Positions 10,518 to 63,426 of a DNA stretch of 64,000 bases are shown here, piece by piece. Position 1 is the stretch's first letter. Every line of letters starts with the position of its first letter. Source of the stretch: Poseidonia sp. (GTDB lineage: Archaea > Thermoplasmatota > Poseidoniia > Poseidoniales > Poseidoniaceae); contig JAUREJ010000005.1 of NCBI GenBank assembly GCA_030827475.1, positions 2,128 to 66,127 of the forward strand, given 5' to 3'. The position numbers were made by a program, and so were the translations under genes. The notes below the pieces were generated by a model. The model searched no databases and was not told the DNA's origin. It saw only the letters and a list, made by a program, of their open reading frames with translations.

Positions 10518-10591
10518 TGTATTTTTTAAAGAGCGGAACAATTAAAGTAAGAATATTCGCCCTCTCACACTCATAGGGCGTGAGAGGAAGA

Positions 10592-13500
10592 ATGGCTGAG
10601 ATTGAGTATTTGGATTCTCCACTCGAATCCGATGTCTTGTACGAGCGCTTGTGTGCTCCTGTTCGCAACTGGTTTCGGGATAAATTTCCTGATTTCACCA
10701 GGCCGCAAAAACTCGCCATTCCTGCCATCATGGAACAAAAACACCTCTTGTTGTGTTCGCCTACGGGGTCGGGAAAAACGCTCACGGCTTTTTTGAGCGT
10801 TATCGACCAACTGGTTAGGCTTGCATTGGATAAAAAATTGGAAAAAAAGGTGTATGCGATCTACATCTCGCCCATCAAGGCCCTCGCCAACGACATCCAG
10901 CGAAACTTGATCGGCCCGCTTGAAGAAATCAAAGCCAATTATCTGCCCGACCGAGCCCAAGAGATACGCGTCGGCTTGCGTACCGGAGATACCTCCCAAT
11001 CGGACCGTCAAAAGATGCTGCGAAACCCCCCCCATATCCTCATCACCACACCTGAAAGCCTTGCCATCGCCATCACCTCTCCACGTTTCCAACCCATCAT
11101 CAGCGAAGTCGAATACATGATCCTCGACGAACTGCATTCCATGGTGCCGACCAAACGCGGTGTCCATTTGTCCTTGACCCTCTCCTTGCTCGATTCTTTG
11201 CTCAAGAACCCGGTTCAGCGCATCGGCATCTCAGCCACCATGGAGCCCTTGGAAACGGTCGCTGAATATCTTGTGAGCAGCGATGACCGAGAGGCTCGTA
11301 GCCAAAACAGCGCGGTTTCGATTGCTAAAATATCTGGTTCTCGTGAACTTGATTTGGACATTCTCATCACCCATCCAAAGTTTAGCGATTTACCTGTCTT
11401 GAAAATCCTGGAATACAACATCGAAGCTATCGCCGACTTGATCAGCGCGCACACCACCACGCTCGTGTTCGCCAACACGAGAAAAATGACCGAAACCATC
11501 GTGCAAAAACTAAGGCCGTTCCTCGGGGATTTGGTTGCCGGACATCACGGTTCGATGGACAAGAACATCCGGTTGGACGTTGAAAAGCGTTTGAAATACG
11601 GCCACCTTCGTGCGGTTGTCACCTCATCGTCCTTGGAAATGGGTATCGATATTGGGTCGGTGGATTTGGTGCTTCAAGTTGGTAGCCCCGGTGATATCGC
11701 CACCGCTCTCCAGCGGATCGGACGAGCAGGCCACCACGTAGGGGGCATCCCAAGGGCCCGTTTCCTGCCGCAAAGCGTGGATGATTTGTTGGAACTCGCT
11801 GCGCTCCAAGCAGCGATTCAAACCGGAGACATGGACCGATTGGACTTCCCGCAAAATTGCCTGGATGTGGTGGCTCAATTCATCATCGGATTGGTGATTA
11901 TCAACGACCTCGATATCGACGAAGCCTTCGAAATCATCGTCAATTCTTGGTCGTATCGAAATTTCGAGTACGACGACTTCATCGAAGTTTTGGACATGCT
12001 CGAAGAAGAACGCCGCATTTGGGTGGATTGGGAAGAAAACATCTTCGGAAAGCGCGGTTATTCAAGAATGATTTACTACACGAACATCGGAACAATCGCC
12101 CCAGATAATTCGTACCTGGTGTTTAACGCAGAAGGCTCAATCTTGGGCAAACTTTCGGGTTCGTTCGTATCAAATTTGAGAACCGGTGACGTCATCTTGT
12201 TGGGTGGTTCGACCTACAGGGTCACCAACATCCAAGGAACCCGCGTGAACGTCACGAGCGTTACAGGGCACAGACCCACCATCCCATCGTGGTCCGGAGA
12301 GGCACGCAGTAGAAGCCGCGAGTTGTCCAAAGCCCTTCAGGACCTCATCGGGCATTGTATGGTGTCGCTGCGTCGTGAAAGCGACCCGAGGTTGCTTCTG
12401 CGCGACGTCTACGGACTTTCAAACGAAGTCGCCAACGCCATCGCTCGCCACCTTGAGGAGCATTCCTTGGATTCGTTCCAAGTCCCCGACCCTCATCGTA
12501 TCTTGATTGAACAGGTTGTCAGCGGTTCGTTCCCTACCTACATGATCACCACATGCAGAGGCCGTGGCTTCAACACCGCCCTTGGATACTTCATGGCCGG
12601 TCTTGCTGAGGCCAACAGCATCAACGTCATCGAGATGTCCTTTGACGAAAACGGATTGTTGCTGAAAACGTCTCAAGAGGTTGACCCCGGGTCAATGTAC
12701 ACCGCATTCCGGGACAACAATCACATCGATGTCATCGAACGGTACATCATCAACACCCAAATATTTGCAAAACGGTTCAGGGAGGTTTCCGGTCGCTCGC
12801 TCATCATCCCCAAAAGGATGGGTGCAGAAGAAATCAGCCCTCAACAATTCCAGCAGCGAGCCGATGCGCTTCTTCAGAAACACCGAAGCATGGATGGCAG
12901 CCTTTTGATGCGGGAAGCCAAAAACGAAATTCTCTTTGGCGATATTGACCTCATCGGCCTTGAACAATTCCTTGAGGCCTGCAGCACCGGGTCTGCTCGC
13001 ATCGTCCACACCAAGGTCGTGGTCCCTTCGAGGTTGGGCATGTCGTTGTTCATGTCGGCGTTTGAAGATTTGATGTCCATGAAAACTCGGGCGTTCTTGG
13101 TCAAGGACATTGACCCTTCCATCCTCCAACGCCTCTTGGGAACTCGGTCCCTCGCCACCGAACTGTCAAGCGAACAATTGACGGAGTATTATCTCGGGAA
13201 GGCACCGGTTCCGACCAATGCACGGGAACTGCACCATTTGATGAGCCACGGTGGTGGGCTCGACCGCCAATTCAACAACCCGTTGTACCGTGAGAAATTG
13301 AACGAGGTGTCCTTGGAAACCATCCGAGGTTGGGTAGAGGAACTCTGTCAGGCTGGCAAAATAACCAAGCTTGAGGGTACGGGTCAGGATGAATTGGATG
13401 GGAAATGGTTCACGCCTTATATGGCCGAAATTCACGGAACCCTCGGTTGCTTGGCTGTTGCCGGTGGAAAAGACGTCGAGAATCTTCTCGAATTGCACAC

Positions 13501-15889: not shown

Positions 15890-16101
15890 CTGGGCCCGGC
15901 CAAGGCGCATGGACTCGTTGAACGAGGTAAACCTGAATTCACAAGCGGACGTATCGCGCATGGGCTTTGCCTCATGCCTCAATATCAACGCGCCATTTTC
16001 TTTGATTTGACAAATTGAAGAGGGGATTGTACCTATTTCGCCGTTCAGGTGCAAAGCGATTTACCAACTCGTTAATAGTGGAGTGCCGTTTAGTTTTGGA
16101 C

Positions 16102-19100
16102 ATGAAGAAGGCACTTTGCATACTTTTTCTTTTTCTTTTCAGTCTTGCGACACCCGTTCTGAACACTTCCGCCGAAGAGACCGGTCAGGGGATGGAAGTG
16201 CTTCACACCGCCATCAATCCCGCCAATAACAACACCTACCACCTTCTTTCCTCCTCCTCGTGGACCGACGCAGCTTCCTATGCTCAATCGCTTGGTGGTT
16301 TTCTCGTAACCGTGGACGACAGCGACGAAAACACCTGGTTGTTTGAGACGTTTGGCACATGGGGAAATCAATCTCGACACCTCTGGATTGGTTTGAACGA
16401 TGCAGCCGATGAAGGGCAGTTCAAGTGGCACGATGGTACGCCGTTTTTCTACCGCTCTTGGGGCGACGCCCAGCCCTCCGAGGGAGGGGATGAAGATTAC
16501 GTTCACATCACAGGAACGAACATGGGGAACATCGACCCGGGAACTTGGAACGATTTGGAAAACGACCCACAATACTTCCCGGTCTATGGTGTGGTCGAAA
16601 TCGGACCCGGAGCAGATTATGCTCTCCGCTTTGACGGGGAGTCCGACCACGTGCTTGTTCAGGACGATAGCGGGCTCGACACGAGCAACGACTCCAGCCT
16701 CGTTATCTCGGCTTGGGTTCATCCGTTTTCCGTTCAAGGGAATCAATTCATCATGATGAAAGGTGATTACGGATGGGGGCTTTACCTCAGCGACGACCGT
16801 GTCGCCTTCGCATCGGAATACAGCCTTGCCCGTCATCCTACCTCAAACGGAAGTGTTCAGGCAAATGTTTGGACCTTGGTGGGTGTTGAAGTTACGCGAG
16901 GTGTGGGTTACACCTTCTCCATCAACGGGGAAGAGGCGGGTACGGTGCTGGACGAGGATGCCGATATTCCCCTCGGCGACTTTGGCTCGAACGATTGTTT
17001 TGAGCAAGGATTGGCTTGCGATGAACTCTACATTGGTCGGATGGGTGCCGGTTGCGATTGTGCACATTTCGAGGGTCTTCTCGACAACATCACCGTGCTC
17101 GCTGGGAACAACCTCTCCAACCTCGAAGAGCGAACAGCGTGGATGTTTGGTGAGGGAGAGGGTGCGACAACGCAAGACAGCGTGGCTAACCGAACTGCGA
17201 CCATCCACGGGGCGGACTGGGTGATGCCCGATGGAAGCATCGTAGCCCAGGCCGTTGAACTGAAAATGGGCGAAGAGCATTTGGTTGAGGGCGCCTCCGA
17301 AGGCGACACCCTACTGTTTTTCAGCGACGTAGAAACGTACACTCGGACGTTGTCGTGGTTCTCCTCGTCGTGGATGTTTGACGATTGGAACGATGACATG
17401 GAATCAATGTTTACGGTTTACGTAGGCTTCAATCAAGTTCCGGACAGGTGGGTGAACAACGGCTCGTTCTCGGATGATTTTGGCTTCGCATATCAAGAAT
17501 GGTCGTGGCCGGATGAAGGTACGATTTGGTTTGTTATGGTCGTTGAATCCCCGATCGGGGAACTCTACATCTCTCTGGACGCGGATGTGGCTGACCCTCC
17601 TCCGACGCTCGAAGACATGACCGAACTCAAGGAGAGCATCGCTGTCACCAATCAAGAGGTGGGAGCGAATTTTGATAGCGGTCAAGGTTACGGTGCTCTG
17701 TACTATTACGTCAACGTCACCGAACCTCTGGCAGACCTCAGAATTCGCACCTACGGCGGACGGGGGGATGTTGACCTCGGTATTTCCTATTACAGCCCAC
17801 CTGCTCCAGACGATTTCTGGTTTTTTAATGACGGTGATTTTGGAATTTCCCTTGACGGAGAGGCCGAAAAGAGCACCTCAAAATCCGAATGGTCAACCGG
17901 CCCAGGAAACGATGAGGAAGTTCACCTCTACGATGTCCAGCCCGGCATTTACTACATCACGGCATACACCTATCGAAACGCTCGTGGTTTTACCATTCTT
18001 GCCGATTTCATTTACCCTCCAACCAATGTAGAGCCTGCAGATGCCATCACCTTATCGCCGGGCATTGAATACGGCTTGTTGAGCGGATACGATGGACTGA
18101 TGCAATATTTCAAGGTAGACGTCCCTCAAGGCACAGAACGGCTGGTTGTTGAGCTCACGGAGGGTGGCGGCGAGGCCTCTCTCTACATGCGACACGAGCA
18201 GGCACCAACCACAACCGCCTACGACCACCACACGACGACCGCCGGGGTCGGTGACCGTGTGGCATTTAACGACCCAACACCAGGTTGGTGGTACATCCTC
18301 CTCACCACGGATTCAGCATTTAGCGGCGTGAACATTCTTGCTGAATTCGCAGACCGTTATGTCTGGGAGTATAACGGCGTTCCCATTGAACTCTTCAACG
18401 GTGAAACAGTTGAGGGCATTGGCGTTGGAAAACAAGGCAGTGTGTCCTTCTTCGCGATGCTGGACCGTCCAGGGAATTTCTTCCAAGTTGAAACCTACGG
18501 TGGTGTTGGTGATGCACAATTGCTCCTCGAGGGGTCGCAGTACGAGGTTGAGTTTGGTGATTGGGGTAGGCCCATGCAAGATGGCGAGATACAGACCTCC
18601 ACGAACGAGGTCACGTTGAAGAGCGGTGATGATGGAACTCAACATGTTGTACGGTTTGAAGCGCCGATGAACGGGCGAATCAGCATCCAACTGATTGGCA
18701 TTTCCGATGTTGAAGACATCTCCATCGTCGCTCGCTGGGACGTTTCTGAATTCCCAATTGAACCTGTGGAACCGATTGAACCGACCTCCGTTGAAACGTG
18801 TTCCGAGTCGGCTGATGGTATGTTCAGGAAATTGGATCGCAACCTCGATGGCATCCTTACCGAAGAAGAGCGTCAAAGCATCGATGCATCCGAGAGTAAC
18901 CGTCTTGCCATGGACCTCAACGGCGACGATGCGATTGAATACCGAGAATACCTCCAATTCAAATGCACGTGTGACGTTGAATTACAATCCGTTTTTGATG
19001 GCTTTTCAGAGGGCCGTAACACCGTCAGCCTGTCATCGCTTCGTTCTCATACTTGGGCCAACGTCTACGATTTGAACTTGTACGACGCCAACCAAGACGC

Positions 19101-19680
19101 CTTCCTTGACAAAGAGGAACTTGAATTGCTCATCCTGATGTGCGAGACGACGTTTGACGCCTTTGATGGTGACGGTGATGGCGTTCCAGATGAAGACGAT
19201 GCCTTCCCCAACGACCCGACCGAAACCAAGGATACCGATGGTGACGGTGTGGGCGACAATGCCGACATCGTGGCTTCCGTTTCCAACGACATCGTTTACG
19301 CCACAGCAGGAACCCTCATCGTGGTGCTGCTCGGGCTCCTCATGCTGTTTTTGCGAAGCGGTTCGCAAGGTCAGGCGGCGTTGGACAAGGAGTGGGGTGA
19401 TGAGGCTCGCTTTGAGGATGCGGTCTCCAATCAAACAACATCCTTCGATCCCTTTGTGAACGGTGAAAGTGTCCTCGATACACCACCGGTTCTGTCCGAA
19501 ATTACTTCGGCACAACCATTCAATACTGAGGCACGTTCCTCGATGGGTCATGAACCTCCAAACAGGGCGTTGATGGGCATGATGCTGGACGGTGTCGAAA
19601 CCGTTGAACATCCAACGGGAAGTGGACACTTTTGGATTCGTCTCGATCCTGAATCGGATTGGGAAGTCAAGAACCTCTGA
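16102..19680 (+). CDS. Large secreted, membrane-anchored mosaic adhesin-like protein (C-type-lectin-like, LamG-like, 3x PPC-like, EF-hands, thrombospondin type-3-like repeats)
   Basis: Signal peptide MKKALCILFLFLFSLATPVLNTSA. CTLD-like WIGLNDAADEGQFKWHDGTPFFYRSWGDAQPSEGG...WNDLEND. LamG-like LRFDGESDHVLV...ISAWVHP. PPC-like blocks such as YYYVNVTEPLADLRIRTYGGRGDVDLGI. EF-hand loops DRNLDGILTEEE and DLNGDDAIEYREY. DGDGDGVPDEDDAFPNDPTETKDTDGDGVGDNAD. TM segment IVYATAGTLIVVLLGLLMLFL, then a ~110-aa tail. Confidence 0.8.
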   Translation: MKKALCILFLFLFSLATPVLNTSAEETGQGMEVLHTAINPANNNTYHLLSSSSWTDAASYAQSLGGFLVTVDDSDENTWLFETFGTWGNQSRHLWIGLNDAADEGQFKWHDGTPFFYRSWGDAQPSEGGDEDYVHITGTNMGNIDPGTWNDLENDPQYFPVYGVVEIGPGADYALRFDGESDHVLVQDDSGLDTSNDSSLVISAWVHPFSVQGNQFIMMKGDYGWGLYLSDDRVAFASEYSLARHPTSNGSVQANVWTLVGVEVTRGVGYTFSINGEEAGTVLDEDADIPLGDFGSNDCFEQGLACDELYIGRMGAGCDCAHFEGLLDNITVLAGNNLSNLEERTAWMFGEGEGATTQDSVANRTATIHGADWVMPDGSIVAQAVELKMGEEHLVEGASEGDTLLFFSDVETYTRTLSWFSSSWMFDDWNDDMESMFTVYVGFNQVPDRWVNNGSFSDDFGFAYQEWSWPDEGTIWFVMVVESPIGELYISLDADVADPPPTLEDMTELKESIAVTNQEVGANFDSGQGYGALYYYVNVTEPLADLRIRTYGGRGDVDLGISYYSPPAPDDFWFFNDGDFGISLDGEAEKSTSKSEWSTGPGNDEEVHLYDVQPGIYYITAYTYRNARGFTILADFIYPPTNVEPADAITLSPGIEYGLLSGYDGLMQYFKVDVPQGTERLVVELTEGGGEASLYMRHEQAPTTTAYDHHTTTAGVGDRVAFNDPTPGWWYILLTTDSAFSGVNILAEFADRYVWEYNGVPIELFNGETVEGIGVGKQGSVSFFAMLDRPGNFFQVETYGGVGDAQLLLEGSQYEVEFGDWGRPMQDGEIQTSTNEVTLKSGDDGTQHVVRFEAPMNGRISIQLIGISDVEDISIVARWDVSEFPIEPVEPIEPTSVETCSESADGMFRKLDRNLDGILTEEERQSIDASESNRLAMDLNGDDAIEYREYLQFKCTCDVELQSVFDGFSEGRNTVSLSSLRSHTWANVYDLNLYDANQDAFLDKEELELLILMCETTFDAFDGDGDGVPDEDDAFPNDPTETKDTDGDGVGDNADIVASVSNDIVYATAGTLIVVLLGLLMLFLRSGSQGQAALDKEWGDEARFEDAVSNQTTSFDPFVNGESVLDTPPVLSEITSAQPFNTEARSSMGHEPPNRALMGMMLDGVETVEHPTGSGHFWIRLDPESDWEVKNL

Positions 19681-40970: not shown

Positions 40971-41432
40971 ATGGTGGCGAGGGCGGTTGGCCTTCACGTC
41001 AATCCCCACGGAGGCGTGCCCAAATACCCTGTTGACCACCTCATCGTTCAGGCAAACGGTTGTCTCGGAGATAAACAACGGAACACGCGCTACCATGGCG
41101 GGCCGGACCGTGCCGTGTGTATCCTCCTCACTTCGGTCCTGGAGAAACTTCAAGCCGACGGTCACCCCATTGAAGCGGGGAGCACCGGTGAAAATCTGCT
41201 CATCGACGGTTTGCATCCTGAATCATTGCATGCAGGTTGCCGATTAAACGTCGGGGAGGTAGTTTTGGAACTGACGGGTGACGCACCGCCTTGCAAAACA
41301 ATCGGTTCATCGTTTGAGAACGGCATGTTCAGAGCATTAAGTCACAAGCAAACCCGTGGACAAACACGTTGGTACGCGAGGGTTCTTGTTGAAGGGACCG
41401 TTCGTTTGAACGACGGTGTGCACCTTCAATGA
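40971..41432 (+). CDS. MOSC-domain protein (YiiM-like)
   Basis: GGVPKYPV..GDKQRNTRYHGGPDRAV..GENLLIDGL..PPCKTI are MOSC beta-barrel motifs including the conserved Cys. An ATG at 40971 lies in frame in track ORF 40788..41432. Confidence 0.75.
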   Translation: MVARAVGLHVNPHGGVPKYPVDHLIVQANGCLGDKQRNTRYHGGPDRAVCILLTSVLEKLQADGHPIEAGSTGENLLIDGLHPESLHAGCRLNVGEVVLELTGDAPPCKTIGSSFENGMFRALSHKQTRGQTRWYARVLVEGTVRLNDGVHLQ

Positions 41433-43213
41433 AGCCTCGCGAGTTGGAAATCGGTCAACTCTCGTAGGGCAACCAAAGCAGGGCCGTCATCGATTCGGTC
41501 AAGGCAAGCATGCGCTTGCGAATGAAACGCCTCAGCCATTTCTCGAGCGTAAGTAACGGAGCCCAATTCTTTGAGCGCCTCCAGACCATCGCTGAGCGCA
41601 GCGTCTCCAATTGAATCACCTTTTCCGAGAACGGCCAGGAGTCGGTCTTTTACTGGGCCTTCAGGTTGGCGAAGAGCGTGAATGACCATCAGTGTGCGCT
41701 TTCCTTGGGCTATGTCAGAGCCAGCCGGCTTGCCCAAGGTTTCTGAATCTGAGAGAACATCGATGATGTCGTCCATCAGTTGGAAGCAGAGTCCGACAGC
41801 CTTGCCCCAATCAGCCATCAACTGGACGGTTTCCTCATCAGCACCCGATATGCGGGCCCCGATTTCAGCACAAATTAGGAACATGACAGCGGTTTTTCCT
41901 TCGATCATCTCCAAGTATTCATCTTCCGAAACGCCGATTCGGTCTTCAAATTCGATGTCCAACTGTTGGCCTTCGCTCACTCGACGAACCATCCATGCGA
42001 TGCGGTTGACCAACGGTGCGACATCGGTTGGCTCAAGATTCTCCGCTTGAACAAGGCGTTCAAAAGCGATAGCGAGCATCGCATCGCCAGCGTTGATCGC
42101 CGTCGGCATGCCGTATTCCACGTGAACCGCGTTTCTTCCCCGACGAATTTCGTCATCGTCCATGATGTCATCATGGACCAGCGTGAAATTGTGAACGGTT
42201 TCGATGGCCGCTCCAATATCAAGGAGGCCAGAATGGGTTTCCCCGACAGCCTTTGCAATGAGCCAAGGTAGTGTGGCTCGCATGCGTTTTCCACCGCCTT
42301 CAACGAGGTGCATCATGGCGTTAGCCAACCGTTCATGACGTGATGCTCGAAGACTTGCTTCAATCCTCGCTTCAATGAGAGGTTTGACTTCCATGATGGA
42401 GGTGAGCAAATCAGCCCCTTCTGCACCCGGTAGCATGTGGCTGATGTCTCCCATGTCGTGGATGTTGTCGTTGGCCAGTTCGGCGAGTTTGGAGGGATCA
42501 GCGTGGTGACTCCACCAATCTTTGGTCATGATGCGTGCTGCGATGGAACGGAACCACGGTGCTACGGCGTTTTGGGGGGGGCGTTCTTCAATGAGCATGG
42601 CTTCCAGAGCATCCCGGCTTACCCACATGATGTCGGAAACCTCGTTTGGATTTGGTTTCAATTCAACATCGGCCGTCATGACCAAGATGTGGTCGATTTC
42701 GCGTTCGATCCATTCAGCATTCATTCGAGATGCGTATCGCATTTTTGTCATGAAGGTCATGTCGTCTTCTGAAATTTGGGTTGGGTCAATGCCCAGTTCT
42801 TGTTCTAATTTTCGAACGGCGGCCCGTTTCACGCCCATGGCATTGGTTTCGTCCAGCTCAGCTTCTGCGTGGAGCGGGTGCGAGCAGCACGCATTGGCCC
42901 ATACGCCTGGGAAGGTGACTTTGTCCATCGACCGGCGTTGGAGGAGCATCTCACCTTTTGAGTTGAACAACAGCAGACTAAACGCACGGTGGAATGAACC
43001 GGCCCCTCGGTGCGCTTCTAATTTCGAGAGCGGTCCAATGACCTTGTCCCACTCGTCCACCTGAATGACGGCTTCAGCCATGAGCGTAATCTGTGCCTCA
43101 TCTTTATTCAAGAGCGATGAGCGGTCGTCCTCGGACAATTCAACATGCGGGACATCCTCAATGTTGTATCCCGCCATAGTTTCACCGACCTGACGTGGTC
43201 GCGGAGGATACAT
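41426..43213 (-). CDS. Fusion protein: type-1 isopentenyl-diphosphate isomerase (Nudix-type IDI) + geranylgeranyl/polyprenyl diphosphate synthase
   Basis: The N-terminal half reads HRAFSLLLFNSKGEMLLQRRSMDKVTFPGVWANACCSHP (IDI1 signature). The C-terminal half carries LVHDDIMDDDEIRRGR (FARM) and FQLMDDIIDV (SARM). It is one uninterrupted 595-aa ORF. Confidence 0.85.
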   Translation of the reverse strand: MYPPRPRQVGETMAGYNIEDVPHVELSEDDRSSLLNKDEAQITLMAEAVIQVDEWDKVIGPLSKLEAHRGAGSFHRAFSLLLFNSKGEMLLQRRSMDKVTFPGVWANACCSHPLHAEAELDETNAMGVKRAAVRKLEQELGIDPTQISEDDMTFMTKMRYASRMNAEWIEREIDHILVMTADVELKPNPNEVSDIMWVSRDALEAMLIEERPPQNAVAPWFRSIAARIMTKDWWSHHADPSKLAELANDNIHDMGDISHMLPGAEGADLLTSIMEVKPLIEARIEASLRASRHERLANAMMHLVEGGGKRMRATLPWLIAKAVGETHSGLLDIGAAIETVHNFTLVHDDIMDDDEIRRGRNAVHVEYGMPTAINAGDAMLAIAFERLVQAENLEPTDVAPLVNRIAWMVRRVSEGQQLDIEFEDRIGVSEDEYLEMIEGKTAVMFLICAEIGARISGADEETVQLMADWGKAVGLCFQLMDDIIDVLSDSETLGKPAGSDIAQGKRTLMVIHALRQPEGPVKDRLLAVLGKGDSIGDAALSDGLEALKELGSVTYAREMAEAFHSQAHACLDRIDDGPALVALRELTDFQLARLH

Positions 43214-48455: not shown

Positions 48456-49481
48456 ATGGCGAAAGATGTGTTGTATATCGGAATTGACTTGGGAACCTTC
48501 CGCTCAGTGATGGTTTCTTCTGACAGCCACGAAGTTGAAGAATTGACCGTGATTGGAACACCGAAAGACCCCATTGCTCGAAATTTCTTGAAGCGCGATG
48601 TTCTCTTTGGGGAAGAAGCACTCAAAAACCGACTTGCACTCAACCTTTTCCGACCCTTGGAACTCGGAGTCATCAAGGACACGCCCGAAGACAGAGAATT
48701 CATTGCTCACTTCATCACCCATTTGATTGGTCTTTCCGACCCTGAAGAGTACGACCGCGTGGTCGCTGTTATCGGTGCTCCTGCCGAAGCAAGCCACGTC
48801 GACAAAACCGCCATCTTTGACGCAGCAGCGGGTTCTGTTAACTCCGCTATGATCATCTCCGAACCATTTGCCGTCGCTTACGCTCTTGACATGATTACCC
48901 ATACGCTGGTCATTGACATCGGTGCTGGAACGACTGACCTTTGCCGCGTCTACGGGACCATTCCAGGACCCGGTGACCAAATGCACACCGGTCATGCCGG
49001 TGACTACGTCGACAACCAACTGATCAAAGAAATCCAATCCAAGTACAACGGCGCACAAATCACCAAGGACATGGCTCGACGCTGGAAGGAAGCCTACTCG
49101 TTCGTATCGACGGCAACTCCCGATGAGCCTGTTCTCGTGGACTTTTCCATTGAAGGAAAGGCCATGACCCTCGACATCACAGACTGCATGCAGCGTGCTT
49201 GTGAATCCATCGTTGACCCCATTGTAGAGAACGTCAAGAAACTCATTGCTGGTTCTAACCCTGAATACCACGATGAGTTCCGCAAGAACATGGTTCTCGC
49301 CGGTGGCGGTTCTTCCATCAGGGGCCTCGGTGCCCTCATTGAGCGCCGTCTCTCTGACATGGGCGACGTCAACGTTCACGTTGTCGACGATCCTGTTCGC
49401 TTGGGCGCCATGGGCGGTCTCCGCCTCGCCATGGAAGTACCCGAAGAGATGTGGAAAAACCTCACGCTCGCTTCACGCTGA
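48456..49481 (+). CDS. Actin-fold ATPase, MamK/MreB-like filament protein
   Basis: Phosphate-1 YIGIDLGTFRS, VIGAPAEAS, ISEPFAVAYALD, phosphate-2 LVIDIGAGTTDLCRV, adenosine motif MVLAGGGSSIRGL. GGTGA SD before the ATG. Confidence 0.8.
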   Translation: MAKDVLYIGIDLGTFRSVMVSSDSHEVEELTVIGTPKDPIARNFLKRDVLFGEEALKNRLALNLFRPLELGVIKDTPEDREFIAHFITHLIGLSDPEEYDRVVAVIGAPAEASHVDKTAIFDAAAGSVNSAMIISEPFAVAYALDMITHTLVIDIGAGTTDLCRVYGTIPGPGDQMHTGHAGDYVDNQLIKEIQSKYNGAQITKDMARRWKEAYSFVSTATPDEPVLVDFSIEGKAMTLDITDCMQRACESIVDPIVENVKKLIAGSNPEYHDEFRKNMVLAGGGSSIRGLGALIERRLSDMGDVNVHVVDDPVRLGAMGGLRLAMEVPEEMWKNLTLASR

Positions 49482-57376: not shown

Positions 57377-58585
57377 ATGCAAGCCTTGGAGATGCCTCAA
57401 CCGCTCGCTGGGGAATCCCCAGACTGGTTGGCACGGCTCAACGATTTCTTGGAGGGGCATGGGCGCTGGTCTGGTGAATTACAGGCCATTGTCAATAAAT
57501 TAAAAGACAACATGCCCCTTTCCCACGAGGACGGTTTGACACTTTATCACCATCCGAACCTTCCAGAAATTGGTGCGCTCGCAGATGCGGTTCGTACAGC
57601 GAGATTTGGACGACAGACTTTTTTCAACTCAAACGTCCACATCAATCAAACCAACATCTGTGTTCTTGCCTGCCGCTTTTGCGCCTTTCGTCGAGGACCA
57701 AAAGCCAAGGATGCTTACGCCATGACCGTTGACGAGTATGTAGAGGACCTTGGGAAATATGCGCACGCTGTGGATGAAGTCCATTCCGTGGGAGGACTTC
57801 ATCCGGATTGGGATGTTTCCCACTACGAAACGATGTTTCGAAAAACTCAATCTGCACACCCCCACGTGTCCATCAAAGCCCTGACTGCAGTTGAGATCAA
57901 ACATCTTGCTGAACGTTCTCAAATCACAACCAAAACGGTTCTCCAACGGTTGAAGCACGCAGGCCTTTCCTCGTTGCCTGGGGGCGGTGCAGAAATCCTC
58001 GATGATGACGTGAGAGCGGTCATCTGCAATGGAAAGGAGAGTTCCGAGGAATACCTTCGTATCCATAGAGAGGCTCATGAAATTGGGTTGCCGTCCAATT
58101 GCACGATGCTTTTTGGAACCGTTGAAACACTTGACCAGCGTATCCAACATATGATCTCTCTTCGTGAACTTCAATCACAGACATTTGGGTTCCAATGCTT
58201 CGTCCCCTACCCTTTTTTGCCTGACCACACCCGCCTTCCAGAAGCCCAACTCGCAACCGGAACCGAAATCTTGCGTACCATTGCTGTCTCTCGTCTTCTC
58301 CTTAACAACATCCCCCACATCAAGGCCTACCGGATGAACATCGGGGATCATGTGGCCGAACTCGCCCTTCAATACGGCGCAGATGACATTGACGGAACCG
58401 TCCAAAAAGAGTCGATTATGCACCTTGCCGGTTCAACAGCACCTCTCGATCATGACCGTTCCCGTCTTGCACGACTCATCCGCAATGCTGGTTGCGAACC
58501 CGTGCAGCGAAACACCGTGTACTCAACGTTCACGCCTTATACGGATCCAGAACCAACCCATCGCCGGCTTCGGATGGCACAATGA
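57377..58585 (+). CDS. Radical-SAM menaquinone (futalosine pathway) enzyme, MqnE/MqnC (CofH-like) family
   Basis: NICVLACRFCAF (CxxxCxxC), ~400 aa, followed by mqnA and mqnD homologues. I cannot tell MqnE from MqnC by eye. Confidence 0.7.
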   Translation: MQALEMPQPLAGESPDWLARLNDFLEGHGRWSGELQAIVNKLKDNMPLSHEDGLTLYHHPNLPEIGALADAVRTARFGRQTFFNSNVHINQTNICVLACRFCAFRRGPKAKDAYAMTVDEYVEDLGKYAHAVDEVHSVGGLHPDWDVSHYETMFRKTQSAHPHVSIKALTAVEIKHLAERSQITTKTVLQRLKHAGLSSLPGGGAEILDDDVRAVICNGKESSEEYLRIHREAHEIGLPSNCTMLFGTVETLDQRIQHMISLRELQSQTFGFQCFVPYPFLPDHTRLPEAQLATGTEILRTIAVSRLLLNNIPHIKAYRMNIGDHVAELALQYGADDIDGTVQKESIMHLAGSTAPLDHDRSRLARLIRNAGCEPVQRNTVYSTFTPYTDPEPTHRRLRMAQ

Positions 58586-58594
58586 GGTCGTCCG

Positions 58595-59395
58595 ATGAAG
58601 CACCCTACATGGCTATCGACCATCGGACGGGTGGCATTCATCAACTGCGATCCTCTCTTTTACGGGTTGTCCCGCCAATGGAACGTTCTCGCTGCTCCCC
58701 CATCTTGGCTGACCGGCCATGTCTTGCGAAAAGATTGCATTCTTGCGCCGATTCCAGCTGCTGATTATGCGAAACATGCGGATGAACTTCTTTTGTTGCC
58801 GGACATTGGCATCGGGAGCCAAGGTGAGGTTGGAAGCGTCCTTCTGTTTGGTGCTATTCCACTCGATGCGATGAAAACCATAGCCCTGCCCTCAGACTCC
58901 GCAACATCAGTTGCCCTTTTGAAGCACCTTGTCTCAAAGCGTGGAATGGGCATGAACTACGTTGATACAGGACCTGATTACGACGCGATGATGTCGCTTG
59001 CTGACGGTGCTCTCTTGATCGGAGACCGAGCATTGGAAGCAGCGAGAGAGTTTCCGGAAATGGTCCAAATGGACCTCGGCAAGGCTTGGATGGAGCTGGA
59101 GGGGCTACCGATGATCTTCGGTGTCTTCGTCGCACGAAGGGACACGCCCGTCGAGGCTCTTAAGGAGGCTCACTCGGCCTTGGTTGAGAATTTGGCTGCA
59201 TTTGAGTCTGGGGGTCAACGAAGGGAGGAGGTTATCGTTGGATCAATGAAAAAATCCGGTCTCGCTTACGAACGCCTCGACCAATATTACGGAGAGGTGT
59301 TTAATCGCCTTGATGACCACCATTTGGAAGGCTTGTTTCGGTTCCTTTCCGAAGCCTGCGGGATGGGGGCACCCCCTGAATTTGCATTGATTTGA
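58595..59395 (+). CDS. mqnA: Chorismate dehydratase MqnA
   Basis: IGRVAFINCDPLFYGL, ILAPIPAADY, GEVGSVLLF and LPSDSATSVALLK (MqnA/MqnD periplasmic-binding-like fold family). Confidence 0.7.
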   Translation: MKHPTWLSTIGRVAFINCDPLFYGLSRQWNVLAAPPSWLTGHVLRKDCILAPIPAADYAKHADELLLLPDIGIGSQGEVGSVLLFGAIPLDAMKTIALPSDSATSVALLKHLVSKRGMGMNYVDTGPDYDAMMSLADGALLIGDRALEAAREFPEMVQMDLGKAWMELEGLPMIFGVFVARRDTPVEALKEAHSALVENLAAFESGGQRREEVIVGSMKKSGLAYERLDQYYGEVFNRLDDHHLEGLFRFLSEACGMGAPPEFALI

Positions 59396-59454
59396 CCTCC
59401 CTTGTTTCGATTTTCCAACGGTTGGTTCTTGAAGGGGCCGCGTTTAGCCGAAGC

Positions 59455-60333
59455 ATGGTGGTTGAACTTCCTCTTGATTCGGACGGGAACAAAATCGTAC
59501 GAATAGGCCACAGCCCAGATCCGGATGACGCCTTTATGTTTCATGCCATGACCACGGGAGCGTTCCCCACGCCCGGGTACACTTTCGTTCACGAATTGCA
59601 AGATATTGAGACGTTGAATCAACGGGCGATGAATCAAGATCTCGAAGTTTCAGCAGTTTCCATTCATGCTTATCCCGACATCGCTGAACATTACGCCTTA
59701 ATGAACTGCGGGGCATCGATGGGCGAGGGCTACGGCCCCATGGTGGTTTGCAAGCAAGGCGTGACCGAGGCCGAGGCCAGGGCGGGCGTCATCGCCGTCC
59801 CGGGTTTGAAAACCAGTGCCTATCTTGGTCTTCGGTTAGCTTGGGGAGATGTATCCGTGGCCGTCGTGCCCTTTGACGAGATCATCCCCCGAATCCTTGA
59901 CGACACATACGTCAGCGGGCTGATTATTCACGAAGGCCAGCTTACCTATGTCGACCACGACTTGGATGTTTTGGTTGACCTTGGCAAGTGGTGGAACGGC
60001 CGAACAGAGAACTGGCCGATGCCTCTGGGTGGAAACGTGGTACGCCGAGATTTGGGTGAAAGCGTCATGGAGGACATCACAAAATACACCAAGATGAGCA
60101 TTGAATACGCCCTCCACTCCCCCGGAGAAGCGCTTGAGTTTGCTAAAGCCTGGGGAAGGGGTATTGATGATGAAACGAATCAGGCCTTCGTCAGTATGTA
60201 TGTGAATGACCGAACAATCGATTACCGGGATGAAGGCCGAAAATCCATCCAACGCTTCATCAAAGAAGGTCAAGAGATCGGCCTCATCCGGGACGATTTT
60301 GACACGGACTCGATGGTCTTTATCGGCGCGTGA
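59455..60333 (+). CDS. mqnD: 1,4-dihydroxy-6-naphthoate synthase MqnD-like
   Basis: IVRIGHSPDPDDAFMFHAM, DIETLNQRA, VSAVSIHAY and GEGYGPMVV. The ATG at 59455 is preferred over the TTG-opened ORF at 59392. Confidence 0.65.
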   Translation: MVVELPLDSDGNKIVRIGHSPDPDDAFMFHAMTTGAFPTPGYTFVHELQDIETLNQRAMNQDLEVSAVSIHAYPDIAEHYALMNCGASMGEGYGPMVVCKQGVTEAEARAGVIAVPGLKTSAYLGLRLAWGDVSVAVVPFDEIIPRILDDTYVSGLIIHEGQLTYVDHDLDVLVDLGKWWNGRTENWPMPLGGNVVRRDLGESVMEDITKYTKMSIEYALHSPGEALEFAKAWGRGIDDETNQAFVSMYVNDRTIDYRDEGRKSIQRFIKEGQEIGLIRDDFDTDSMVFIGA

Positions 60334-60342
60334 GGTTTGCAC

Positions 60343-60831
60343 ATGGACGGTGACACCCCTCGCCCCCAAGTTAGTCAATACGGGTCCGTTGACCCAGCCC
60401 CCCCTGAACAAAACGGCGAACTGCTTTCTTGGACAGGAACCTTGTGCGATGAACAAGAACCGATGTTCCAACGTATGCGCGCTGTCTTTGCTCTCCGAAA
60501 CCAAAGCAGCGATGAAGCCTGCCTCGCTCTCTGCAAGGGGTTTGCCAGCACCAGTGCGCTGCTTCGCCATGAGATCGCCTATGTCCTCGGACAGATGCAA
60601 AACCCTGTTGCCCTTCCAACGTTAATACAACGTCTCGAAGACGAAAACGAGCACGTCATGGTGCGCCATGAAGCGGCTGAAGCGATGGGGGCCATCGGTG
60701 ACCGGTCGGTGATTCCCATCCTTGAACGATTCTCCAACGACCCACTCCCCGAGGTCGCAGAATCGTGCGTTGTCGCTCTCGATCTGCTGGCGTGGGTGCA
60801 ACGTGCAGAATTTGCTCAAACTGAATGGTGA
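60343..60831 (+). CDS. HEAT-repeat protein resembling one half of deoxyhypusine hydroxylase (two His-Glu motifs)
   Basis: RMRAVFALRN...SALLRHEIAYVLGQMQNPVALPTL...HVMVRHEAAEAMGAIGDRSVIPIL...PEVAESCVVALDLL. GAGGT SD lies 6 nt before the ATG at 60343. Confidence 0.6.
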   Translation: MDGDTPRPQVSQYGSVDPAPPEQNGELLSWTGTLCDEQEPMFQRMRAVFALRNQSSDEACLALCKGFASTSALLRHEIAYVLGQMQNPVALPTLIQRLEDENEHVMVRHEAAEAMGAIGDRSVIPILERFSNDPLPEVAESCVVALDLLAWVQRAEFAQTEW

Positions 60832-60884: not shown

Positions 60885-61094
60885 ATGCCTCACGACCACA
60901 TTCAACTTGCCCAAGCCCCAAACGGCGAACTTGGCCCACGCTGCCACAACTGCGGTGTGAGGTTGACGTTCGGCAACGCCATGGTCGTCGACAAATACTA
61001 CATGTGTTGGGAGCACTATGTTGAAGCCACCGGTGCCGACACGGCCACCGAAGTCGCTCAAGCCGACGAACGCTTCTGGATGAAGCACGAATAG
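60885..61094 (+). CDS. Small hypothetical Cys/His protein
   Basis: 69-aa ORF with CHNCG...CWEH, preceded by AGGAAGGAGA. It lies directly upstream of priS. Confidence 0.4.
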   Translation: MPHDHIQLAQAPNGELGPRCHNCGVRLTFGNAMVVDKYYMCWEHYVEATGADTATEVAQADERFWMKHE

Positions 61095-62344: not shown

Positions 62345-62439
62345 GTTGGTGCCTGCCGGGCATCAGACCTTCTCCAACGATTGCATTTTGAGGTAAGGTT
62401 CAAGGGTGGTTTCTTCCCCCTTAGGACGAGGTGAGGGTC

Positions 62440-63426
62440 ATGGGTCTGCGGCGAGGGAAGAAAAGCAAGGCCGTAGACAGCCCTCTTCCGATGCCAAATC
62501 TTCCTCCTCCGGGCGGCTTGCCAGCCCCTCTACCACTTCCACCAGGTGGCGCTCCCCTCCCGCCTTTGCCCGGTGTTCAGCCGGCTCCCCTCCCAGCACC
62601 AATCCCCGCACCAGCAAGTGCCAACCCTCTCCCCCCCGCACCGCTCCCTTCGGCTCCTGTGCCTGTTAACGACCCTAACACCACGCTGTCCGGACTCGTT
62701 GAAGAAAAGGGGTACAACGACCTATGGGCCAAAAGGTCGGAAAAACCGTTGCAACAGATCTACGGCCACATCGACAGAATCAGCAACAAAGAAGCTGGGT
62801 CGTTGTTGGACCGCTATGCTGACCGCTTTGGGCACTCGCTTGACAGGGAGATCATCGTTATGCGAAAAGCAGCGGTTGAAGAAAAAGTCGCGGAAATACG
62901 GGATGCTCCTACGGTTGAACTCATTGAAGAGGAACCCGCAGAAACCTTGACAGAACTCCAACGGGTTGAAAACGAACTCCGTGCCCTTAAACCGCTCTAT
63001 CAGGAAGCAAAAGATTTGGGTGACAAAGCCACCCTGGCCGAACTCACCCCGACGCTTCAATCCCTCATGGCCCAACGTAAGGCACTGAAGTCCGAAGGTG
63101 CAAGTGGTCCTACCGAGCCAACAACCGCAGTTGCCGCATCGGCTGACGATGACATGTTCGTGCAGTTCGTTTCAATCGTCGATGATTTGCTGGGTGAGCA
63201 TTTGCCGGAAGAAATCGTCAATGCATTCGTCGCGAGCCCTGACTTTGACACCTACAGGGCAGTGCTCGCAGACCCAGCAGGTGTTGACGAATCAACTCGT
63301 TCCTCGTTTTGCAACATGGTTGATGACCAACTTGGAAACATGTTCCCTGAATCCATCGAGGCGTTCATCGCTTCGCCGGAATTTGAAGTTTATCGCCAAG
63401 TAGGCGAGCAGTACAAGGATGCGTGA
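62440..63426 (+). CDS. Hypothetical protein: N-terminal proline-rich tract, coiled-coil middle, duplicated C-terminal motif
   Basis: PLPMPNLPPPGGLPAPLPLPPGGAPLPPLPGVQPAPLPAPIPAP. C-terminal tandem copies VDDLLGEHLPEEIVNAFVASPDFDTYRAV and VDDQLGNMFPESIEAFIASPEFEVYRQV. GAGGTGAGGG SD before the ATG at 62440. Confidence 0.55.
   Translation: MGLRRGKKSKAVDSPLPMPNLPPPGGLPAPLPLPPGGAPLPPLPGVQPAPLPAPIPAPASANPLPPAPLPSAPVPVNDPNTTLSGLVEEKGYNDLWAKRSEKPLQQIYGHIDRISNKEAGSLLDRYADRFGHSLDREIIVMRKAAVEEKVAEIRDAPTVELIEEEPAETLTELQRVENELRALKPLYQEAKDLGDKATLAELTPTLQSLMAQRKALKSEGASGPTEPTTAVAASADDDMFVQFVSIVDDLLGEHLPEEIVNAFVASPDFDTYRAVLADPAGVDESTRSSFCNMVDDQLGNMFPESIEAFIASPEFEVYRQVGEQYKDA

What the first reader, a model, noticed from the sequence alone, without database searches (positions are those of the whole stretch)
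60337..60831. Half-length deoxyhypusine-hydroxylase-like protein (two HE motifs) in an archaeon
Seen in sequence: a 162-164 aa HEAT-repeat ORF carries two His-Glu motifs in matching contexts, ALLRHEIAYVLGQM and VMVRHEAAEAMGAIG, about 33 residues apart. It is flanked by RMRAVFALRN and PEVAESCVVALDLL. Established knowledge: eukaryotic deoxyhypusine hydroxylase (DOHH) is a ~300-aa, 8-HEAT-repeat di-iron enzyme. It is built from two symmetric halves, each contributing two HE motifs in very similar sequence contexts. Hypusine or deoxyhypusine occurs on archaeal aIF5A, but as far as I know no archaeal hydroxylase has been assigned and DOHH is usually treated as eukaryote-specific. Inference: this could be a single-half DOHH that homodimerises to rebuild a four-HE di-iron site. 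That would make it either an archaeal hypusine hydroxylase or an ancestral pre-duplication form.
Basis: partly seen in the sequence, partly recalled or inferred. Interest (0 to 1): 0.75.

Follow-up and report, generated by a model that had tools for sequence, protein, structure and literature searches.

The report
Half-size deoxyhypusine hydroxylase in marine archaea
Marine Group II archaea carry a conserved gene for exactly one half of the iron enzyme that eukaryotes use to finish the hypusine modification of translation factor 5A, an enzyme the hypusine literature says archaea lack; two copies probably pair up to rebuild the two-iron active site.

Summary
Window 60343-60831 (+) encodes a 162-aa protein (164 aa from the TTG at 60337) with four HEAT repeats and two His-Glu motifs exactly 33 residues apart.

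It is a true homologue of eukaryotic deoxyhypusine hydroxylase (DOHH), not a generic HEAT protein. It matches human DOHH (4D4Z) at E=5.5e-67. It aligns to both halves, and H78/E79 and H111/E112 fall on the iron-ligand motifs.

The host is a Poseidoniales (Marine Group II) archaeon. The gene is single-copy, about 160 aa in every genome seen, and under strong purifying selection. Both HE motifs are invariant.

Published pangenome tables list this gene and deoxyhypusine synthase as MGII core genes. Hypusine papers still say archaea have no DOHH homologue.

Two fused copies model confidently onto human DOHH (rmsd 1.2 Å). This fits a homodimer with a di-iron site but does not prove one.

Two points stay open:
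- Origin. The core is equidistant from the eukaryotic N and C halves, while the N-terminal tail carries the eukaryotic linker motif SVDPAPP.
- Substrate. The gene always sits directly after mqnD.

Verdict: a new variant of a known enzyme kind, with high interest.

The parts
60343..60831 (+). CDS of the half-size DOHH homologue. It is 162 aa from the ATG at 60343. An alternative TTG at 60337 gives 164 aa. All residue numbers in this report count from the TTG.
   Evidence: The ORF is listed. Orthologues are 160-162 aa and begin at the position of this ATG. Human DOHH matches at E=5.5e-67. dN/dS is about 0.075.
60373..60405 (+). N-terminal tail motif SQYGSVDPAPP (residues 13-23). It is invariant in MGII and homologous to the interdomain linker motif of eukaryotic DOHH.
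   Evidence: Residues G16 to P22 are invariant in 43 sequences. Query residues 9-33 align to the human DOHH linker. The motif xVDPxP occurs in 85, and DP.P in 99, of 112 eukaryotic linkers, but in only 2 of 112 N-termini. The tail has low pLDDT in the monomer model and pLDDT 92-96 when it serves as the linker in the fused model.
60568..60573 (+). First His-Glu motif, H78-E79, in LLRHEIAYVLGQM. It aligns to human H56-E57 and H207-E208. G85 aligns to human G63/G214.
   Evidence: Alignments are. The PDB SEQRES numbering offset (+5) was checked. The motif is invariant in the family. Columns H78, E79, G85 and Q86 are at least 90% conserved in both eukaryotic halves.
60667..60672 (+). Second His-Glu motif, H111-E112, in MVRHEAAEAMGAIG. 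It aligns to human H89-E90 and H240-E241, all of which are iron ligands.
   Evidence: The ligand identities come from PMC3306375.
60436..60816 (+). Four-HEAT-repeat core (about residues 34-160), built from eight helices.
   Evidence: Pfam HEAT_2 and HEAT_PBS match. The AF2 monomer has pLDDT 88 overall and 95-99 in the core, with helices H29-37 through H138-160. The top Foldseek hit is 4D4Z.
59392..60333 (+). mqnD (1,4-dihydroxy-6-naphthoate synthase). Its stop codon lies 3-9 nt before the DOHH-half start. It is the invariant upstream, same-strand neighbour and probably shares an operon.
   Evidence: Pfam VitK2_biosynth matches. PDB hits are 1zbm and 2czl/3a3u, annotated as a menaquinone biosynthetic enzyme. 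The adjacency holds in 84 of 84 related loci across three gene arrangements.
57377..59395 (+). An mqnE-like radical-SAM gene (57377-58585) and mqnA chorismate dehydratase (58595-59395). Together they form the upstream part of the same co-directional cluster.
   Evidence: NCBIfam MqnE scores 420.5 bits, just under its cut-off of 434.55. The PDB match is to chorismate dehydratase.

Best explanation
The gene encodes a single-half member of the deoxyhypusine hydroxylase (DOHH) lineage. It has one leader segment plus four HEAT repeats, equivalent to the linker plus one domain of the roughly 300-aa eukaryotic enzyme.

Each chain carries one complete iron site: H78, H111 and E112, equivalent to human H56/H89/E90 or H207/H240/E241. 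Each chain also carries one copy of the residues that bind substrate in the human enzyme (E79, G85).

Inferred mechanism:
1. Two chains associate around a two-fold axis, concave face to concave face, as the N and C domains do in human DOHH.
2. This sandwiches a di-iron centre built from four His and two Glu ligands.
3. The invariant SVDPAPP tail packs along the partner subunit as a clasp, in the place of the eukaryotic interdomain linker.
4. The di-iron centre activates O2 and hydroxylates the deoxyhypusine side chain made by deoxyhypusine synthase on aIF5A. These aerobic surface-ocean archaea would therefore make true hypusine.

Shown here: homology, ligand alignment, conservation, a core-gene distribution in Poseidoniales, presence of DHS in the lineage, and compatibility with the DOHH dyad fold.

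Inferred, not shown: dimerisation, iron binding, O2 chemistry and the aIF5A substrate.
For: - Human DOHH (4D4Z) matches at E=5.5e-67. Both halves align (110 and 119 bits), and the HE motifs fall on the ligand motifs.
- All 16 alignment columns that are at least 90% conserved in both halves of 112 eukaryotic DOHHs are identical in the MGII consensus.
- Identity is 45-48% to eukaryotic halves. Those halves are only 39-40% identical to each other.
- Among 1.84 billion cluster representatives, the top matches other than giant multi-repeat HEAT proteins are two-domain DOHH-length proteins. The one long contig I checked is eukaryotic.
- In 43 sequences, H78, E79, G85, H111 and E112 are invariant and length stays at 160-162 aa. 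dN/dS is about 0.075.
- There is one locus per genome in 80 Poseidoniales MAGs. The window holds no second half.
- The monomer model has pLDDT 88 and its best structural match is 4D4Z.
- The fused two-copy model has pLDDT 92.6 and pTM 0.90. It superposes on 4D4Z with TM 0.95 and rmsd 1.2 Å.
- DHS is present in 97-99% of MGII MAGs. This gene, auto-named DOHH, is present in 75-78% and listed as MGII core.
- A DHS homologue cluster in Poseidoniales is also reported in PMC10407285.
Against: - There is no experimental evidence of any kind.
- The fused model used an alignment of full-length eukaryotic DOHHs, and 4D4Z (released 2015) probably predates AlphaFold2's training cut-off (from memory). The model shows compatibility, not dimerisation. 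I could not inspect the metal-site geometry.
- The gene is never next to DHS or aIF5A in 1.35 Mb of related loci.
- It is always directly downstream of mqnD, which could point to a quinone-related substrate.
- Early amino-acid analyses found mainly deoxyhypusine in Euryarchaeota, including Thermoplasmatales. MGII itself was never analysed.
- A perfectly symmetric active site has no precedent for this enzyme.
Confidence: 0.55

Rival explanations
1. The fold and di-iron chemistry are the same, but the substrate differs. The protein would be an O2-dependent hydroxylase, or an accessory protein, working with the futalosine (menaquinone) pathway, co-transcribed with mqnD. In that case aIF5A in MGII stays deoxyhypusinated.
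For: In the window and all 84 related loci, the gene lies on the same strand immediately after mqnD. This holds across three arrangements: the window type, a type with a roughly 2.3-kb insertion between mqnA and mqnD, and an inverted mqnD-plus-HEAT pair in the 60%-identical clade. The intergenic gap is 3-9 nt. The upstream genes are MqnD and MqnA. mqn genes and this gene have nearly the same occupancy in MGII MAGs.
Against: The known futalosine pathway needs no hydroxylase (established knowledge, not tested here). The residues that bind eIF5A(Dhp) in the human enzyme (E57/E208 and G63/G214, from memory of Kang et al. 2007) are invariant here as E79 and G85, and overall identity to eukaryotic DOHH is 45-55%. 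That is unexpected after a switch to a small aromatic substrate. A promoterless gene can stay glued to its upstream neighbour for expression alone. No MqnD-HEAT fusion appeared among the listed homologues.
Confidence: 0.15
2. The protein does not form a homodimer. Either it works as a monomer with a mononuclear 2-His-1-carboxylate iron site, or it pairs with a different, more divergent HEAT protein encoded elsewhere in the genome.
For: Each half of DOHH supplies a 2-His-1-Glu set, which by itself resembles a facial triad. Dimerisation was not tested directly. Only part of each genome was examined.
Against: No second DOHH-like sequence occurs in the window. Each MAG has a single locus. All close homologues form one orthologous series. 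The sequence is intermediate between N and C halves, as expected for a chain that must play both roles. Two copies fit the dyad with pTM 0.90.
Confidence: 0.1
3. The gene is a non-catalytic relic. It would be a truncated remnant of a horizontally acquired eukaryotic DOHH gene, or a plain HEAT or PBS-lyase-type scaffold protein.
For: Pfam and NCBIfam see only generic HEAT, NblB and CpcE similarity. NCBI names the orthologues 'HEAT repeat domain-containing protein'.
Against: The catalytic motifs are invariant. dN/dS is about 0.075. Length is constant across two families of an archaeal order, and the gene is listed as MGII core. The NblB and CpcE scores (17-27 bits) are far below their cut-offs (300-600 bits).
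Confidence: 0.03
4. This rival concerns origin only. The gene would be a secondary derivative: a full-length eukaryotic DOHH, or its linker plus C-terminal half, was transferred into the Poseidoniales ancestor and reduced to one half. It would not be a surviving pre-duplication form.
For: DOHH is reported as present in all eukaryotes, whereas among prokaryotes I found the half-size form only in Poseidoniales. The N-terminal tail carries the SVDPAPP motif, which in eukaryotes occurs in the interdomain linker before the C half and almost never at the N-terminus. The MGII profile scores higher on C halves than N halves in 90 of 112 proteins.
Against: The HEAT core is not nested within C halves. 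In neighbour-joining bootstraps the sister group was N in 47, C in 36 and mixed in 17 of 100. Consensus identities are MGII-N 64%, MGII-C 59% and N-C 62%, which is a star. Signature columns split 2 N-like to 2 C-like. No eukaryotic lineage stands out as donor; the maximum mean identity is about 55%. A pre-duplication unit of tail plus four repeats would also explain why the second tail became the linker.
Confidence: 0.45

Closest known systems
Eukaryotic deoxyhypusine hydroxylase (DOHH / Lia1 / nero; EC 1.14.99.29; KEGG K06072; structure 4D4Z/4D50)
   Same: It has the same HEAT-repeat fold. The HE-motif contexts are the same ((L/F)(K/R)HExAYxLGQ and MVRHEAxEALGAI), with the same 33-residue spacing. 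The linker motif SVDPAPP is shared. Identity to each half is 45-55%. A two-copy model superposes on 4D4Z at 1.2 Å. Deoxyhypusine synthase co-occurs in the lineage.
   Different: It has half the length: 162 aa against about 300, and four HEAT repeats and two HE motifs per chain against eight and four. The dyad must therefore be built from two identical chains. The host is an archaeon. The gene sits in an operon-like cluster with menaquinone (futalosine) genes. Activity has not been tested.
PBS-lyase-type HEAT proteins (CpcE/CpcF, NblB, E. coli YibA, MTH187; Pfam HEAT_PBS/HEAT_2)
   Same: They share the same short HEAT-like repeat type, which is the only Pfam or NCBIfam signal.
   Different: Similarity is weak: E=1e-3 to 1e-6 against 1e-67 for DOHH. 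These proteins have no paired HE motifs in the DOHH context, and scores fall far below the family cut-offs.
Single-chain pseudo-symmetric enzymes that have homodimeric half-size relatives (a general evolutionary pattern of duplication and fusion of a homodimer, recalled from general knowledge)
   Same: A two-fold pseudo-symmetric active site in the long form corresponds to a presumed true two-fold homodimer in the short form. The short form is sequence-intermediate between the two halves.
   Different: The direction of evolution is unresolved here, and dimerisation has not been shown.

Membership tests
Deoxyhypusine hydroxylase (DOHH, EC 1.14.99.29) | Specific sequence homology to DOHH rather than to other HEAT-repeat proteins | tested here: met
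   phmmer against the PDB gives 4D4Z at E=5.5e-67, while the next natural HEAT protein reaches 5.6e-6. Apart from giant multi-repeat HEAT proteins, the top representatives are DOHH-length two-domain proteins at 45-51% identity. Foldseek's top hit is 4D4Z.
Deoxyhypusine hydroxylase (DOHH, EC 1.14.99.29) | His-Glu motifs that supply the iron ligands (human H56, H89, E90, H207, H240, E241), in conserved contexts 33 residues apart | tested here: met
   H78/E79 and H111/E112 align to both pairs. They are invariant in orthologues. The ligand list comes from PMC3306375. Note that each chain provides only one H-H-E set.
Deoxyhypusine hydroxylase (DOHH, EC 1.14.99.29) | Eight HEAT repeats and four HE motifs in one chain of about 300 aa, arranged as a symmetric dyad | tested here: not met
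   The protein has 162 aa, four repeats and two HE motifs. Length is constant in more than 100 orthologue clusters. The window holds no second half.
Deoxyhypusine hydroxylase (DOHH, EC 1.14.99.29) | The dyad architecture can be formed, with the active site sandwiched between two four-repeat layers | tested here: inconclusive
   The fused two-copy AF2 model has pLDDT 92.6 and pTM 0.90, with TM 0.95 and rmsd 1.2 Å to 4D4Z. However, the model was guided by an alignment of eukaryotic DOHHs.
Deoxyhypusine hydroxylase (DOHH, EC 1.14.99.29) | Residues needed for binding eIF5A(Dhp): human E57/E208 and G63/G214 (from memory of Kang et al. 2007, not re-read here) | tested here: met
   E79 and G85 occupy these columns. 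They are invariant in MGII and at least 90% conserved in both eukaryotic halves.
Deoxyhypusine hydroxylase (DOHH, EC 1.14.99.29) | Di-iron cofactor and O2-dependent hydroxylation of deoxyhypusine on IF5A | not testable with these tools
   This needs the recombinant protein, metal analysis and an activity assay.
Deoxyhypusine hydroxylase (DOHH, EC 1.14.99.29) | Co-occurrence with deoxyhypusine synthase and IF5A in the same organism | tested here: met
   DHPS is present in 153/158 and 91/92 MGII MAGs (Tully 2019 Suppl. Data 10). A DHS homologue cluster in Poseidoniales is reported. DHS is reported in all archaeal genomes. aIF5A itself was not retrieved for MGII; its presence is assumed from its universality in archaea.
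PBS-lyase HEAT proteins (CpcE/NblB type) | Score above the family's curated cut-off | tested here: not met
   NblB scores 26.7 bits against a cut-off of 300. CpcE scores 21.5 against 330. CpcY scores 17.4 against 600.
Futalosine-pathway (Mqn) enzymes | Homology to a known Mqn enzyme, or a known requirement for the step | tested here: not met
   There is no similarity to any Mqn family. Only the conserved adjacency to mqnD links the two. No hydroxylation step is known in the pathway (established knowledge).

The most novel reading that the evidence does not exclude
The Poseidoniales protein is a living representative of the pre-duplication, homodimeric stage of DOHH. On this reading, the eukaryotic eight-repeat enzyme arose by tandem duplication and fusion of such a unit of tail plus four repeats, with the second tail becoming the SVDPAPP linker. 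It would also mean that Marine Group II archaea make genuine hypusine with an O2-dependent enzyme, so the full hypusine pathway is not a eukaryote-only invention.
Probability: 0.25. Interest if true: 0.85.

Novelty: new variant of a known kind. Interest (0 to 1): 0.68.

Why it matters
Reviews and primary papers on hypusine state that archaea have deoxyhypusine synthase but no DOHH homologue. How, or whether, archaea hydroxylate deoxyhypusine is treated as an open question.

This gene is a clear DOHH homologue and a core gene of one of the most abundant archaeal groups in the surface ocean. That makes the question directly testable with one small recombinant protein.

The gene is also a natural half enzyme. 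DOHH is cited as an example of an oxygenase that arose de novo from a non-catalytic HEAT scaffold, with its active site sandwiched between two repeat layers. A homodimeric four-repeat form would be the missing intermediate or a minimal version of that architecture. It would also be a simpler, symmetric system for studying the unusually stable peroxo-diiron intermediate.

The finding does not explain hypusine in anaerobic Crenarchaeota, because I found the gene only in Poseidoniales.

Tried and rejected
- **Second half in the window.** tblastn of the ORF against all six frames found nothing.
- **aIF5A or DHS nearby.** I searched with a GKHG motif and with tblastn, using human DHPS and M. jannaschii aIF5A sequences written from memory. 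The target was the window plus 84 related loci (1.35 Mb). Nothing was found, so there is no neighbourhood link to the hypusine pathway.
- **Pfam and NCBIfam.** Neither has a DOHH-specific model hit. Only generic HEAT hits and sub-threshold NblB and CpcE hits appeared. I rejected the PBS-lyase reading.
- **Nesting within C or N halves.** A neighbour-joining tree of 246 half-domains with 100 bootstraps was unresolved. Signature columns were too few, at 2 against 2. No maximum-likelihood software was available.
- **Tandem AF2 with an MGII-only alignment (A2).** I then used a tandem first row with eukaryotic full-length rows (A3), which was accepted.
- **Viral contigs.** No relatives were found, so there is no sign of a viral vector.
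- **Full-length close relatives in prokaryotes.** The P0113 contig is eukaryotic, carrying an IP3 receptor and eIF2B-epsilon. The P0111 contig is too short to tell.
- **Literature.** Searches for DOHH with Asgard, Poseidoniales or MGII found no paper discussing an archaeal DOHH. One search, on duplication and homodimers, was uninformative. The Kim et al. 2006 paper was not held.
- **Not achieved.**
  - I could not list half-size homologues below the top 150 or 120 hits, so other lineages with such proteins cannot be excluded.
  - I did not retrieve the MGII aIF5A sequence.
Full report
**1. The observation**

The ORF at 60337..60831 (+) is real. From the TTG it is 164 aa. An ATG two codons downstream (60343) gives 162 aa, which is the length and start position of almost all orthologues.

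The two His-Glu motifs are H78-E79 and H111-E112 (numbered from the TTG). They are exactly 33 residues apart.

**2. What the protein is**

Pfam sees only generic HEAT families (HEAT_2, HEAT_PBS). NCBIfam gives NblB, CpcE and CpeY hits of 17-27 bits against cut-offs of 300-600. Domain libraries therefore do not name it.

Direct comparison does:
- phmmer against all PDB sequences gives human DOHH (4D4Z/4D50) at E=5.5e-67. Designed alphaRep proteins follow, and natural HEAT proteins appear only at E≥5.6e-6.
- The query aligns to both halves of human DOHH. Residues 34-156 align to the N domain (110 bits). Residues 9-151 align to the linker plus C domain (119 bits).
- After correcting for the 5-residue tag in the PDB SEQRES, H78/E79 fall on H56/E57 and H207/E208. 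H111/E112 fall on H89/E90 and H240/E241.
- H56, H89, E90, H207, H240 and E241 are the published iron ligands (PMC3306375).
- An AF2 monomer model (pLDDT 88; 95-99 in the core) is an eight-helix, four-repeat solenoid. Its best PDB match is 4D4Z.

**3. Who has it**

The large protein search returned 1777 hits. The top ~110 clusters are 160-162-aa proteins at 65-92% identity from Poseidonia and Poseidoniales MAGs. NCBI names them 'HEAT repeat domain-containing protein' and JGI names them 'deoxyhypusine monooxygenase'.

In one-genome-per-species prokaryote contigs, the 80 listed of 100 matching loci are Poseidoniales. There is one locus per genome, including the CM001443 MG-II chromosome. Two contigs are labelled Verrucomicrobiales and Salinimicrobium. 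Both have the full MGII synteny and are evidently mis-binned.

Against 1.84 billion cluster representatives, the best matches are DOHH-length two-domain proteins (45-51% identity) and giant HEAT-repeat proteins. One other half-size cluster appears (P0233, 159 aa, 60% identity, 177 members). Its contigs share the MGII gene neighbourhood at 46-59% identity. It is probably the other MGII family (inference).

The one long contig I checked for a close full-length relative is eukaryotic. No relatives were found in viral contigs.

Tully 2019 (PMC6336850, Suppl. Data 10, sheet 'MGII Core') lists the following:

| Gene | Group 1 MAGs | Group 2 MAGs |
|---|---|---|
| DOHH; deoxyhypusine monooxygenase | 119/158 | 72/92 |
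| DHPS (deoxyhypusine synthase) | 153/158 | 91/92 |

The automated label therefore exists in databases and supplements. I found no paper that discusses it. The hypusine literature states that archaea lack a DOHH homologue.

**4. Conservation**

In 43 aligned sequences, 56 columns are invariant. They include H78, E79, G85, Q86, R110, H111, E112 and E115, and the tail residues G16 to P22 of the motif GSVDPAPP (P23 is at least 90% conserved).

All 16 columns that are at least 90% conserved in both halves of 112 eukaryotic DOHHs are identical in the MGII consensus.

dN/dS is about 0.075 for the pairs in which dS is not saturated. The gene is not a relic.

**5. Relation to the two eukaryotic halves**

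I split 112 two-domain DOHHs into N and C halves with an HMM of the MGII core.

| Comparison | Mean identity | Consensus identity |
|---|---|---|
| MGII vs N halves | 45% | 64% |
| MGII vs C halves | 48% | 59% |
| N vs C halves | 39-40% | 62% |

The MGII sequence sits near the N/C split, and the consensus values form a three-way star.

A neighbour-joining tree attaches a monophyletic MGII group at that split. Bootstraps do not decide between an N sister (47), a C sister (36) or a mixed sister group (17). Signature columns split 2 N-like to 2 C-like.

The N-terminal tail points the other way. It carries SVDPAPP, which occurs in the eukaryotic interdomain linker. The stricter pattern xVDPxP is found in 85, and DP.P in 99, of 112 linkers, but in only 2 of 112 N-termini.

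The origin is therefore unresolved. Two readings fit:
- A pre-duplication-type unit of tail plus four repeats, whose second tail became the linker after fusion.
- An ancient transfer of the linker plus C half, which then evolved under the constraint of playing both roles.

The restriction to one archaeal order favours transfer in one direction or the other. No eukaryotic donor lineage stands out.

**6. Can two copies make the enzyme?**

A multimer run was not available. I fused residues 3-156 to residues 6-164, so that the second tail replaces the human linker, and modelled the fusion with 60 eukaryotic DOHHs as the alignment (A3).

The model has pLDDT 92.6 and pTM 0.90. The linker copy of the tail has pLDDT 92-96, whereas the free N-terminal copy is disordered. 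The model superposes on 4D4Z with TM 0.95 and rmsd 1.2 Å over 283 columns.

This shows that the sequence is compatible with both positions of the dyad. It is not independent evidence of dimerisation.

**7. Genomic context**

The window is an ordinary MGII chromosome segment. It encodes an Lhr helicase, aEF-2, a P-type ATPase, an OPT transporter, PriS and others.

The gene is the last member of a co-directional cluster:
- an mqnE-like radical-SAM gene (57377-58585)
- mqnA (58595-59395)
- mqnD (59392-60333)
- the DOHH half

The identities of mqnA and mqnD were confirmed against PDB entries. The mqnD stop lies 3 nt before the TTG and 9 nt before the ATG.

In all 84 related loci the gene follows mqnD on the same strand. 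This holds in the lineages with a ~2.3-kb insertion between mqnA and mqnD. It also holds in the 60%-identical clade, where the mqnD-plus-HEAT pair is inverted relative to mqnA, mqnE and PriS.

DHS and aIF5A are not within 10 kb in any locus.

The adjacency is the main evidence for a rival, quinone-related role. It is equally explained by a promoterless gene that depends on mqnD transcription. The futalosine pathway has no known hydroxylation step (established knowledge).

**8. Mechanism and verdict**

The most likely reading (about 0.55 for the whole chain of inference; above 0.95 for homology alone) is a homodimeric, half-size DOHH.
- Each chain gives one iron site (H78, H111, E112) plus E79 and G85 for substrate binding.
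- Two chains sandwich a di-iron centre.
- O2 is activated, and deoxyhypusine on aIF5A is hydroxylated.

An O2-dependent enzyme suits these aerobic surface-ocean photoheterotrophs. Relatives such as Thermoplasmatales were reported to contain mainly deoxyhypusine, so MGII would be an exception acquired with this gene.

Rivals and their estimated probabilities:
- a different substrate tied to menaquinone synthesis (0.15)
- a monomer or heterodimer (0.10)
- a non-catalytic relic (0.03)

The protein fails one defining feature of DOHH, namely eight repeats and four HE motifs in one chain. It meets the sequence, ligand and pathway-co-occurrence criteria. I therefore file it as a new variant of a known kind, not as a plain member.

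**9. Significance**

The finding contradicts a standing statement in the hypusine field. It also offers a minimal, symmetric version of an enzyme cited as a de novo oxygenase built from a HEAT scaffold.

It does not solve hypusine formation in anaerobic Crenarchaeota. Interest score: 0.68.

Noticed in passing
window 60885-61094 (+): A 69-aa ORF with CxxC...CWEH spacing, which looks like a small zinc-ribbon protein. It lies between the DOHH half and PriS. It is conserved at 46-97% identity in all 84 related loci, and it stays next to PriS even in the inverted arrangement. It has no Pfam hit.
   Followed up: partly
L029 (NZEQ01000006.1) and L075 (CAXRAI010000015.1): These contigs are deposited as Verrucomicrobiales bacterium and Salinimicrobium sp. 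MAGs. They carry the complete MGII synteny (mqnE-mqnA-mqnD-HEAT-small ORF-PriS) at 59-93% identity to the window. They are almost certainly mis-binned Poseidoniales contigs.
   Followed up: partly
L048, L050-L055, L057, L058, L060, L066-L071 (region about 1-3.3 kb upstream of the HEAT gene): In one sub-lineage, about 2.3 kb of extra DNA separates mqnA from mqnD, while mqnD and the HEAT gene stay adjacent. I did not examine the content of the insertion.
   Followed up: no
window 41426-43213 (-): A 595-aa protein that fuses an N-terminal NUDIX domain to a polyprenyl synthetase domain. It may be an IPP-isomerase-like or hydrolase module fused to a prenyl-diphosphate synthase.
   Followed up: no
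window 48456-49481 (+): A 341-aa actin-fold protein that matches MreB_Mbl and the archaeal Salactin and Volactin families.
   Followed up: no
window 16015-19680 (+): A 1221-aa protein with a C-type lectin domain and a PPC (pre-peptidase C-terminal) domain. A C-type lectin domain is unusual in an archaeon. The protein is probably secreted or on the cell surface.
   Followed up: no
window 10580-15874 (+): A 1764-aa Lhr-type helicase (DEAD, Helicase_C, WH_Lhr and DEAD_assoc domains) with a C-terminal AlkZ-like DNA glycosylase region.
   Followed up: no
window 57377-58585 (+): This radical-SAM gene scores best as MqnE (420.5 bits) but falls just under the NCBIfam cut-off (434.55). It also scores 345 bits as MqnC. 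Its assignment as MqnE or MqnC is therefore not certain.
   Followed up: partly
window 62431-63426 (+): A 331-aa protein with a proline-rich, low-complexity N-terminus and no significant Pfam hit. It is conserved downstream of PriS in most related loci at 34-91% identity.
   Followed up: no
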